Origin: Octopus sinensis
Taxonomy: Eukaryota
Length of the DNA stretch: 64,000 bases
Direction of reading: 5' to 3'
NCBI RefSeq assembly: GCF_006345805.1
Contig: NC_042998.1
Location: 85,560,001-85,624,000 of the forward strand
Shown one piece after another: positions 28,001 through 29,728 of this stretch. The position numbers are program-made. Numbering within the stretch: position 1 is the stretch's first letter; every line of letters starts with the position of its first letter.

Positions 28001-29728
28001 ATATCTATATTATTATTGATATTAATATCTATATTCATAAAATGTATTTCCCATGTTGTAAAGAAACATTTGTAACTACAGTATTAAAATAGTGTCATTA
28101 ATTCCATTCTTTGTTTTAATACATGTATATGTATGTGTGACCTATATAGTAGATAAATAAACAGTGCTAATTTAGCTATTTTTCCATAGACTGAAAAAAA
28201 AAATTATGAACAACCTTAATTGATTTTCAAATCTCAGTAGATTCTCATCAGAGGTGTTTACATCAATTTGACCGATCCCAGAGAAATAAGCAGCCATTCT
28301 GTTTACATACACAAACAATTACAGTACCTTCAGAAAAGTGGGGCTATTAATTTGCATACCATAGACATATGCACACACAATAGACTTCTGAATAATTTCC
28401 CTGAATCATTCTCCCTTACAAGGGTTTACTACTATAGCTTCAGGTCAATAATTTGAAGCAAAAGTAGAAGACTCTTGTCTCAGTTACCACACAATGGGGT
28501 GGAACCCAAAACTGTTGTTATGAAGCAAACTTCATAATACACAAGTACACATGCACCGAGATTAGCTATAATAATTATCATACTTCAAATTTGGAATTTG
28601 ATCAGGACTACTAAGTATACCCCTATGATTAATAATTCATGCAGAACTAGATCAACTGGGGTCTTTATTAAATGATGATAAATTGTATAATGTAATTGTT
28701 ACTGCCTATTATGCATTTGTTATGATTCTTTTCTTAGTTATACCTGTTATTATTGGAATATTTAGTAATTGATTAGATCCTCTAATATTAGGAATCCCTG
28801 ATATACTTTACTTTAAAAAATAAAACTTTAACAGAGTAAAGTGTTTAATATTTTGATCTTATAACTTCTGAACTAATCTATAATTTCAGGAAGTGAAAGA
28901 ATTTGCTAAACCAGAAGAAGTAACAAATGAACAAGTTTTCTCTGAAGTCTATCACACTTTGATCCATTCTCCTGCTTTAGAGACACTTTTAAACTTGGAA
29001 CATTCGTATGCTATGGACATTGAAAATATCACTCAAAATCGTGATGAGGATATCGCACACTTAGAGAACAAGTATTTTTTACTATTTTTGATTGATTGCT
29101 TGCTTTCTTTATTTGTAACTTCACCACCACTATCACCATCATCACATTACCTTCTGTATTAAGAGTACTACTATCATTATGTTTATTAAAGTTGTGTTAT
29201 ATATATATATATATACATATATATAATAGGTTCCCCACCTGGACAGGATACCGGTCCGTCGCAGGTGAGTTGCTAGATGCAGGAGGAAAGAGTAAAATGT
29301 AAAGCTTTGTATGAGCTTTGTTGTGTTAAGTACTGGTTATCACAAAAGTATTAAAATACAGAGATATATTCTTTGATGATAATAAGAAAACGTAAAAAAC
29401 AGTTTACAAGAAAGTATTTAAGAAAGTATTCAGAACGGGGCTCCAAAAAGTAGAATTCAATAAAACATGATTTTTATTGAACTCTACTTTTTGGAGTCCC
29501 GTTCTGATTACTTTCTCAAATACTTTCTTTCTTGTAAACTGTTTTTTAACATTTTCTTATTATTATCAAAGAATGCATTTCTGTATTTTAATACTTTTGT
29601 GATAACCAGTACTTAACACAACAAAGCTCATACAAAACTTTTACATTTTACTTTTGACAATCTTTTTCTAAAAAAGTGAAACCAGTCAAGTGAACAAACA
29701 TCTTTAAGATTGCATTTTCAAACCTTCG

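What the first reader, a model, noticed from the sequence alone, without database searches (positions are those of the whole stretch)
28581..28805. Old, frame-intact mitochondrial COX1 insertion (NUMT) hidden in a FERRY3 intron
It is invisible to the standard-code ORF track because of TGA codons, but it reads 75 codons without a frameshift under the invertebrate mitochondrial code. It carries many non-conservative substitutions and one extra codon (AYYAF for AHAF), as expected for neutral nuclear decay. It covers the 5' part of the COI barcode region and keeps LLNDD, which as I recall is the cephalopod form of this motif. It is a fossil of ancestral mtDNA. Weak similarity may continue toward the acceptor (ttttgatcttataacttct), raising the possibility that NUMT sequence contributes to the branch-point region.
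Basis: partly seen in the sequence, partly recalled or inferred. Interest (0 to 1): 0.7.

Follow-up and report, generated by a model that had tools for sequence, protein, structure and literature searches.

The report
Decayed mitochondrial COX1 fragment in octopus intron
A 225-base piece of the mitochondrial COX1 gene was copied long ago into an intron of the octopus FERRY3 (C12orf4) gene and has since decayed as junk DNA, which is an ordinary kind of event.

Summary
Window 28581-28805 (+) reads as 75 stop-free codons under the invertebrate mitochondrial code. It matches COX1 residues 16-89 (E 1e-22 against solved structures; E 1e-27 by tblastn). The closest proteins are octopod COX1 at 76-77% identity.

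It lies in a 5,211-bp intron (23679-28889) of the FERRY3/C12orf4 gene. The window's exons encode residues 65-561 of the Octopus sinensis protein exactly. The fragment is on the gene's strand and ends 84 nt before the acceptor.

It is a dead NUMT:
- It has 17 substitutions plus one extra codon, nearly all at sites fixed across 50 octopods.
- The heme-a ligand His61 is lost.
- Three TGA codons close the frame in the nuclear code.

Implied neutral divergence is about 0.125 per site, roughly 34-78 My on published octopus rates.

The open frame means nothing: simulated neutral decay keeps it open about half the time. Both ends are sharp, with 57/74 identical inside, 1/29 downstream and 0/15 upstream, so the suggested reach into the branch-point region is not supported. 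Its 5' neighbour is an older SINE-like repeat. Ordinary; low interest.

The parts
28581..28805 (+). NUMT core: a decayed copy of mitochondrial COX1 codons 16-89. It has 75 codons including one extra codon.
   Evidence: Table-5 translation has no stop. PDB COX1 E=1e-22. tblastn with octopod COX1 E=1e-27. 57 of 74 aligned residues are identical to octopod COX1.
28575..28823 (+). Full stop-to-stop open frame under the invertebrate mitochondrial code (82 codons). It is bounded by TAA upstream and TAA downstream.
   Evidence: One search shows the flanking stops.
28707..28712 (+). TAT TAT (Y43-Y44). One is an inserted codon; the other replaces the conserved His that aligns to residue 61 of mammalian COX1. 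That residue is the heme a axial ligand; this role is recalled, not tested.
   Evidence: HMMER alignment places a gap opposite query residue 43 and H opposite residue 44. H is present in 50 of 50 octopods. Minimal change is CAT to TAT.
28599..28601 (+). First of three in-frame TGA codons (the others are 28626-28628 and 28770-28772). TGA is Trp in mitochondria and stop in the nucleus.
   Evidence: W7, W16, W64 read from TGA. The standard-code translation shows * at these places.
28330..28561 (+). Very diverged copy of a roughly 200-bp SINE-like interspersed repeat, directly 5' of the NUMT. About 19 bp of unassigned AT-rich sequence (28562-28580) lies between them. The repeat's ends are approximate.
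   Evidence: Aligns along the whole family consensus. 58% identity to the consensus, against 71-92% for nine other copies. Blastn matches to many window copies.
23533..23678 (+). Upstream FERRY3/C12orf4 exon (residues about 64-112 of the O. sinensis protein). The donor GT is at 23679.
   Evidence: Exact 48-aa run at 23535-23678 and the splice signals seen in the sequence. tblastn.
23679..28889 (+). Host intron of 5,211 bp. The NUMT occupies intron positions 4903-5127 and ends 84 nt before the acceptor AG (28888-28889).
28890..29071 (+). Downstream FERRY3/C12orf4 exon (residues 112-173).
   Evidence: Pfam Fy-3 E=5.6e-14, above its cut-off. 100% identity to O. sinensis C12orf4 homolog isoform X1. 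Exact 62-aa run.

Best explanation
This is a NUMT: a short fragment of octopod mitochondrial DNA covering COX1 codons 16-89. It was pasted into the nuclear genome, presumably during repair of a double-strand break, as is generally held for NUMTs (inferred, not shown here).

The insertion site is near the 3' end of an intron of FERRY3/C12orf4, just downstream of an already old SINE-like repeat. The host is an Octopus of the O. sinensis/vulgaris kind. Since insertion the fragment has drifted neutrally and has no function. It cannot be translated by the nuclear code. Even read by the mitochondrial code, it has lost residues that are invariant in the real protein. Its open mitochondrial-code frame is a chance survival.
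For: SHOWN

1. Homology to COX1:
- E=1e-22 and E=1e-27.
- The top 48 database hits are all octopod COX1 at 75-77% identity, then one unnamed record, one more octopod and Vampyroteuthis at 75%. Nautilus is at 69%.

2. Host-lineage origin:
- The fragment carries the octopodiform states at five sites where outgroups differ: L11, M18, S28, N31, V56.
- It joins 14 octopodiform rows in an ML tree with support 82/90.

3. Nuclear context:
- Flanking exons encode residues 65-561 of O. sinensis C12orf4 homolog isoform X1 in exact runs.
- The exon next to the fragment is a Pfam Fy-3 match.
- The 5' flank is a nuclear interspersed repeat with at least 20 copies or fragments in the window.

4. Solitary and sharply bounded:
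- No other COX1 piece occurs in the 64 kb.
- Identity is 57/74 inside, 1/29 downstream and 0/15 upstream.

5. Loss of constraint:
- There are 17 replacements plus a 3-bp insertion. All but one (site 21) fall at sites where at least 48 of 50 octopods, and usually Vampyroteuthis and Nautilus too, share one residue.
- The NUMT tip branch is 0.57 against a median of 0.015.
- His aligned to residue 61 and Arg aligned to residue 38 of mammalian COX1 are replaced.
- Three TGA codons stop the frame in the nuclear code.

6. The open frame is expected by chance: P=0.46-0.53 at K=0.12.

INFERRED

- Age: at least 20 nucleotide changes over 173.7 nonsynonymous sites gives JC K=0.125.
- The calibration 'dS about 1 is 135 My', under which JC 0.04-0.09 equals 11-25 My (PMC6279123, passages read), gives about 34 My.
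- A rate of 2.4e-9 per bp per generation with a 1.5-year generation (PMC13669787, passages read) gives about 78 My.
- The neighbouring SINE copy is far more diverged (58% identity to consensus), so it probably predates the NUMT.
Against: - No nucleotide-level comparison with an octopus mitogenome was possible, because the tools offer only proteins. Synonymous decay, exact junctions and microhomology are therefore unseen.
- No read data or sister genome could be examined, so the junctions and the age are unverified.
- The Pfam score is below the family's curated cut-off, although the fragment covers only about 70 of 436 profile positions.
- Tree support for the octopodiform grouping is moderate and not 'starred' (82/90). 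The bootstrap had not settled, and no decapodiform rows were in the tree.
- The protein is invariant across octopods in this stretch, so the tree cannot date the insertion within the group.
- The age rests on 20 inferred changes (Poisson error about 22%) and on borrowed rates.
Confidence: 0.93

Rival explanations
1. The COX1 piece did not come straight from mitochondrial DNA at this site. It arrived as a passenger: a copy of an older NUMT moved here by segmental duplication, or carried within or next to a transposable element.
For: It directly abuts a SINE-like repeat, with about 19 bp between them. The window is dense in interspersed repeats.
Against: Only one COX1-like piece exists in the 64 kb. 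None of the nine other aligned copies of the SINE-like family carries COX1-like sequence after its 3' end. The adjoining SINE copy is much more diverged than the NUMT (58% identity to consensus against an inferred K of 0.125), which argues against their moving together.
Confidence: 0.04
2. Assembly artefact: mitochondrial reads, or reads from contaminating DNA, were wrongly joined into the intron.
For: None from the calls. The junctions could not be checked against reads.
Against: The fragment differs from every octopod COX1 at 17 of 74 residues, at sites that are otherwise invariant, and has an extra codon. It therefore cannot be a read from a living mitochondrion of an octopus. The best non-cephalopod hits are more distant still, at 71% or less. 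It is only 225 bp long and embedded in continuous intron sequence between two exons that match the reference protein exactly.
Confidence: 0.01
3. The fragment has been co-opted. It might serve as an alternative exon or exon extension, or as an intronic splicing or branch-point element for the exon starting at 28890.
For: It has the same strand and the same reading phase as the downstream exon (28890-28581=309, a multiple of 3) and lies only 84 nt upstream of the acceptor. The database protein is named 'isoform X1', so other isoforms exist.
Against: In the nuclear code the shared frame has three TGA stops inside the fragment. Between fragment and exon lie stops that hold in both codes (TAA at 28821-28823 and again just before the acceptor), plus two more TGA codons. 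Isoform X1 jumps from 23678 straight to 28890. Detectable mitochondrial similarity stops 84 nt before the acceptor. Branch points are usually 18-40 nt upstream (recalled), and that zone shows no COX1 similarity. The substitution pattern matches neutral simulation.
Confidence: 0.02

Closest known systems
NUMTs (nuclear copies of mitochondrial DNA), specifically short intronic COI/COX1 pseudogenes as reported in many animals
   Same: It is a fragment of a mitochondrial protein gene embedded in nuclear DNA, closed by TGA in the nuclear code, and carries replacements and an indel at otherwise invariant sites. A stop- and indel-bearing 'COI-like' sequence, interpreted as a pseudogene, has been reported from the octopod Tremoctopus (PMC8749848, passages read).
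   Different: It is short: 225 bp, covering COX1 residues 16-89 only. By those coordinates it does not span the stretches to which the standard barcode primers anneal (recalled, not tested), so it should not contaminate barcoding. It is fairly diverged (about 23% at protein level). Three full-text searches found no NUMT survey of an octopus genome; subscription journals and supplements were not searchable.
Functional mitochondrial COX1 of Octopoda (for example O. vulgaris P0026, O. bimaculoides P0024, Argonauta P0002)
   Same: 57-58 of 74 residues are identical. It shares the LLNDD motif and other octopodiform states.
   Different: It covers only 15% of the 510-residue protein. His and Arg aligned to residues 61 and 38 of mammalian COX1 are lost, several Gly and Pro are replaced, and there is one extra codon. 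It is located in a nuclear intron.

Membership tests
NUMT (nuclear mitochondrial DNA segment) | Significant sequence homology to a mitochondrially encoded gene | tested here: met
   COX1 E=1e-22, E=1e-27, E=3e-23.
NUMT (nuclear mitochondrial DNA segment) | Flanked on both sides by nuclear sequence | tested here: met
   It lies between two exons of the nuclear FERRY3/C12orf4 gene that match the O. sinensis protein exactly. The 5' flank is a nuclear interspersed repeat. Collinear COX1 identity is 0/15 upstream and 1/29 downstream.
NUMT (nuclear mitochondrial DNA segment) | Derived from the mitochondrial lineage of the host rather than a foreign organism | tested here: met
   The best hits are all octopods. 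Five octopodiform-specific residues are shared. It groups with octopodiforms at 82/90 support. Resolution is to Octopodiformes only, and no decapodiform sequences were available.
NUMT (nuclear mitochondrial DNA segment) | Not a working gene: cannot be expressed as COX1 from the nucleus and shows relaxed constraint | tested here: met
   There are three in-frame TGA codons. Seventeen replacements plus one inserted codon fall mostly at invariant sites. The tip branch is 0.57 against a median of 0.015. The counts match a neutral simulation.
NUMT (nuclear mitochondrial DNA segment) | Nucleotide alignment to the host mitogenome with defined junctions | not testable with these tools
   No collection offered here holds cephalopod mitochondrial or nuclear DNA. 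Only protein sequences could be fetched.
NUMT (nuclear mitochondrial DNA segment) | Junctions confirmed by spanning reads, or by an orthologous filled or empty site in relatives | not testable with these tools
FERRY3 / C12orf4 (Pfam Fy-3) host gene | Exons match the family profile and a named orthologue | tested here: met
   Pfam PF10154 E=5.6e-14, 52.5 bits against a cut-off of 25.8. 100% identity to O. sinensis and 97% to Argonauta hians. Eleven exon matches lie in order on the + strand.

The most novel reading that the evidence does not exclude
The fragment is a tens-of-millions-of-years-old insertion shared by several octopod genera. If so, it is both a clean rare-genomic-change marker for octopod phylogeny and a frozen sample of ancestral COX1 codons. 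That sample would allow mitochondrial and nuclear substitution rates in octopuses to be calibrated against each other. A bolder version is that its closeness to the acceptor (84 nt, same strand) gives it a role in splicing of the FERRY3 exon.
Probability: 0.05. Interest if true: 0.3.

Novelty: new member of a known kind. Interest (0 to 1): 0.12.

Why it matters
It matters little on its own, because NUMTs are common in animal genomes. There are three practical points.

- It shows that octopus nuclear DNA holds COX1-like sequence that a standard-code ORF or gene track misses.
- Given its extent (COX1 residues 16-89), it should not interfere with barcoding.
- If orthologous copies exist in other octopods, it could serve as a presence/absence marker and a rate calibrator.

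The check also removes two tempting over-readings: that the open frame signals constraint, and that the insert reaches the branch-point region.

Tried and rejected
1. An upstream continuation of the NUMT split by an insertion.
- A stretch at 28389-28418, in the same frame, reads WMISLNHSPL against COX1 residues 3-12. It was the best match to the first 15 COX1 residues anywhere in the window in six frames (score 34; the next were 32, 31, 31) and beat 500 of 500 shuffles.
- Rejected: 28330-28561 aligns end to end with a roughly 200-bp SINE-like repeat family, and this stretch falls in the repeat's 5' half. The match is therefore chance within a repeat.

- Three-frame local alignment of 28806-28889 to COX1 residues 90-125 and 90-160 scored 19. 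That score was reached by 203 and 283 of 500 shuffles respectively.
- Collinear identity is 1/29. Rejected.

3. An immediate upstream continuation at 28481-28580 scored 16, reached by 337 of 500 shuffles. Collinear identity is 0/15. Rejected.

4. Other RNA features: there are no tRNAs and no Rfam family at gathering score in the window. Sub-threshold Rfam hits at 29397-29539 (WsnRNA46 at 60.5 against 65.3 bits, and several miRNA families) fall on a long inverted repeat and are taken as hairpin artefacts.

5. Dating by tree failed. The stretch is identical in 8 of the 14 octopodiform rows and nearly so in the rest, so the tree cannot place the insertion within octopods.

6. A screen of the 5 kb around the NUMT for other mitochondrial genes could not be run. 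Only COX1 was tested across the window. Other mitochondrial genes stay unchecked.

7. Not done:
- No nucleotide comparison with cephalopod mitogenomes and no search of other octopus genomes.
- No read-level junction check.
- Supplements of papers were not opened.
- The spliced FERRY3 model was never joined. One exon was searched on its own, and the fetched reference protein was laid on the window exon by exon.
- No contig or hit was taken to be human.

Full report
**What is in the sequence**

Window 28581-28805 on the + strand translates under the invertebrate mitochondrial code into 75 residues without a stop. Nine codons depend on that code: three TGA=Trp and six ATA=Met. The opposite strand is full of stops.

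The stop-to-stop frame under this code is 28575..28823, 82 codons. Under the standard code the same frame is cut three times by TGA, and its longest open piece is 47 aa.

**Is it COX1?**

Yes.
- Against all solved structures, the best matches are mammalian cytochrome c oxidase subunit 1 at E=1e-22. They align query 1-75 to chain residues 19-92 with a single one-residue gap.
- Pfam finds COX1 as the only family, below its curated cut-off (21.3 against 34.8 bits). This is unsurprising for about 70 of 436 profile positions.
- In the large protein database, 95 of 124 candidates passed E<=0.001. The top 48 are all octopod COX1 at 75-77% identity (Argonauta 77%). Next come one unnamed record, one more octopod, Vampyroteuthis at 75%, a further octopod cluster at 73%, unnamed records and nemerteans at 71%, and Nautilus at 69%.
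- tblastn of five cephalopod COX1 proteins against the whole window under table 5 gives one significant hit each. It lies at 28581-28811, matches COX1 residues 16-91, and has E=1e-25 to 4e-28. All other hits have E>=0.045.

The fragment is solitary.

**Where are its ends?**

Laid out collinearly on Octopus vulgaris COX1:

| Region | Identical residues |
|---|---|
| Inside the block | 57 of 74 |
| Next 29 codons downstream | 1 of 29 |
| 15 codons upstream | 0 of 15 |

Three-frame local alignments of both flanks score no better than shuffled sequence. Downstream, 203 of 500 shuffles reached the score; upstream, 337 of 500 did. The ends are sharp.

For a while I thought the NUMT continued upstream. 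At 28389, in the same frame, WMISLNH resembles COX1 residues 3-9, and it was the best such match in the whole window.

This lead failed. The stretch 28330-28561 aligns along the full length of a roughly 200-bp SINE-like interspersed repeat that has at least 20 copies or fragments in the window. The look-alike lies in that repeat's 5' half.

This repeat copy is the most diverged of the ten aligned: 58% identity to the consensus, against 71-92% for the others. About 19 bp of AT-rich sequence (28562-28580) separates it from the NUMT.

**Genomic context**

- The ORF starting at 28890 is an exon of the FERRY3/C12orf4 homologue. It hits Pfam Fy-3 at E=5.6e-14, above the cut-off.
- It is 100% identical to 'protein C12orf4 homolog isoform X1 [Octopus sinensis]' and 97% to Argonauta hians.
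- Laying that reference protein on the window gives eleven exon matches in order on the + strand. Their exact runs together cover residues 65-561.
- The window is therefore nuclear DNA of O. sinensis or a very close relative.
- The NUMT lies in the intron 23679-28889 (5,211 bp), on the gene's strand, and ends 84 nt before the acceptor AG.
The one exon was searched alone.

**State of decay**

- Compared with 50 named octopod COX1 sequences, the fragment has 17 replacements and one extra codon.
- All but one of the 17 (site 21) are at sites where at least 48 of 50 octopods carry one residue, and Vampyroteuthis and Nautilus usually share it.
- The seventeenth, T to A at site 21, is shared with Argonauta and with non-cephalopod outgroups. 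It needs one base change.
- The replaced residues include the His aligned to residue 61 and the Arg aligned to residue 38 of mammalian COX1. From memory, not from a call, these are the heme a axial ligand and a heme a formyl partner.
- Several Gly and Pro residues are also replaced.
- The fragment keeps five states that set octopodiforms apart from Nautilus and other lophotrochozoans in my sample: L11, M18, S28, N31, V56.
- In an ML tree of 26 rows it joins the 14 octopodiforms with support 82/90. Its tip branch is 0.57 against a median of 0.015. The bootstrap had not fully settled and no decapodiform rows were available.
- LLNDD occurs in 51 of the 95 hits, namely the 50 named octopod hits plus Vampyroteuthis. 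Nautilus and the other molluscs have LLGDD.

**Does the open frame mean anything?**

No.
- The 17 replacements need at least 20 base changes over 173.7 nonsynonymous sites. This gives pN=0.115 and Jukes-Cantor K=0.125.
- Because the real protein did not change in this stretch, these changes belong to the nuclear branch.
- Random substitutions at K=0.12 applied to a stand-in ancestor gave a mean of 17.5 amino-acid differences. They left the 74 codons free of TAA/TAG in 46-53% of replicates.
- The block is also, by construction, the piece between the nearest stops.

**Age**

- One octopus genome paper calibrates 'dS of about 1 is 135 million years' and equates Jukes-Cantor 0.04-0.09 with 11-25 My (PMC6279123, passages read). 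On that scale K=0.125 is about 34 My.
- Another uses 2.4e-9 per bp per generation with a 1.5-year generation (PMC13669787, passages read). That gives about 78 My.
- The same first paper puts the O. minor / O. bimaculoides split at 43 My.
- The insertion may therefore be shared among Octopus species. This is inference from 20 changes and borrowed rates.
- The neighbouring SINE copy is much more diverged, so it was probably already there when the mitochondrial piece arrived.

**Mechanism**

What is shown:
- The fragment is of mitochondrial, octopodiform origin.
- It sits in a nuclear intron.
- It is solitary with sharp ends.
- It evolves without constraint.

What is inferred from general knowledge of NUMTs:
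- Escaped mitochondrial DNA was captured during end-joining repair of a chromosome break.
- The insertion then became fixed by drift.

Nothing suggests any present function. Between the fragment and the exon there are in-frame stops that hold in both codes. Detectable mitochondrial similarity ends well upstream of where a branch point would be expected.

**Literature**

- Three full-text searches found no survey of NUMTs in an octopus genome.
- One paper reports a stop- and indel-bearing 'COI-like' sequence from Tremoctopus and discusses NUMTs (PMC8749848, passages read).
- Subscription journals and supplements were not searchable, so absence from print is not established.

**Verdict**

This is a genuine but ordinary NUMT: a new member of a well-known kind.

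Noticed in passing
window 42959-43164, 51300-51495, 53569-53767, 59100-59290, 56740-56914, 11954-11786 (-), and others: A roughly 200-bp SINE-like interspersed repeat has at least 20 copies or fragments in the 64 kb (31 and 22 blastn hits from two query copies, self included). Copies are 71-92% identical to their consensus. Neither ARAGORN nor Rfam at gathering score calls any of them a tRNA.
   Followed up: partly
window 29288-29655: A long inverted repeat (89% over 320 bp, arms overlapping into one big hairpin) lies in the intron just after the exon 28890-29071. It draws sub-threshold Rfam hits on both strands (WsnRNA46 at 60.5 against 65.3 bits, mir-142 and others). It is probably a foldback or MITE-like element.
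   Followed up: partly
window 27747-28123: A second, older inverted repeat (75% over about 330 bp) lies in the same intron as the NUMT, about 450 bp upstream of it.
   Followed up: no
window about 9046-10550 and 51490-51960 (also shorter tracts near 900, 2900, 6150, 13025, 29198-29225, 29735, 56520, 58000): Long, mutually similar simple-repeat or microsatellite arrays flooded the self-comparison. One follows directly on a SINE-like copy at 51300-51495.
   Followed up: no
window 1-23516: Residues 1-58 of the O. sinensis C12orf4 protein found no match in the window at E<=0.01, and residues 59-64 only a non-exact one, although 23.5 kb lie upstream of the first mapped exon. The first exon or exons are either too short to detect or lie outside the window.
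   Followed up: no
window 26001-28000 and 40001-42000: Two 2-kb bins have G+C of 0.45-0.46, against 0.23-0.40 in the rest of the window. They were not examined.
   Followed up: no
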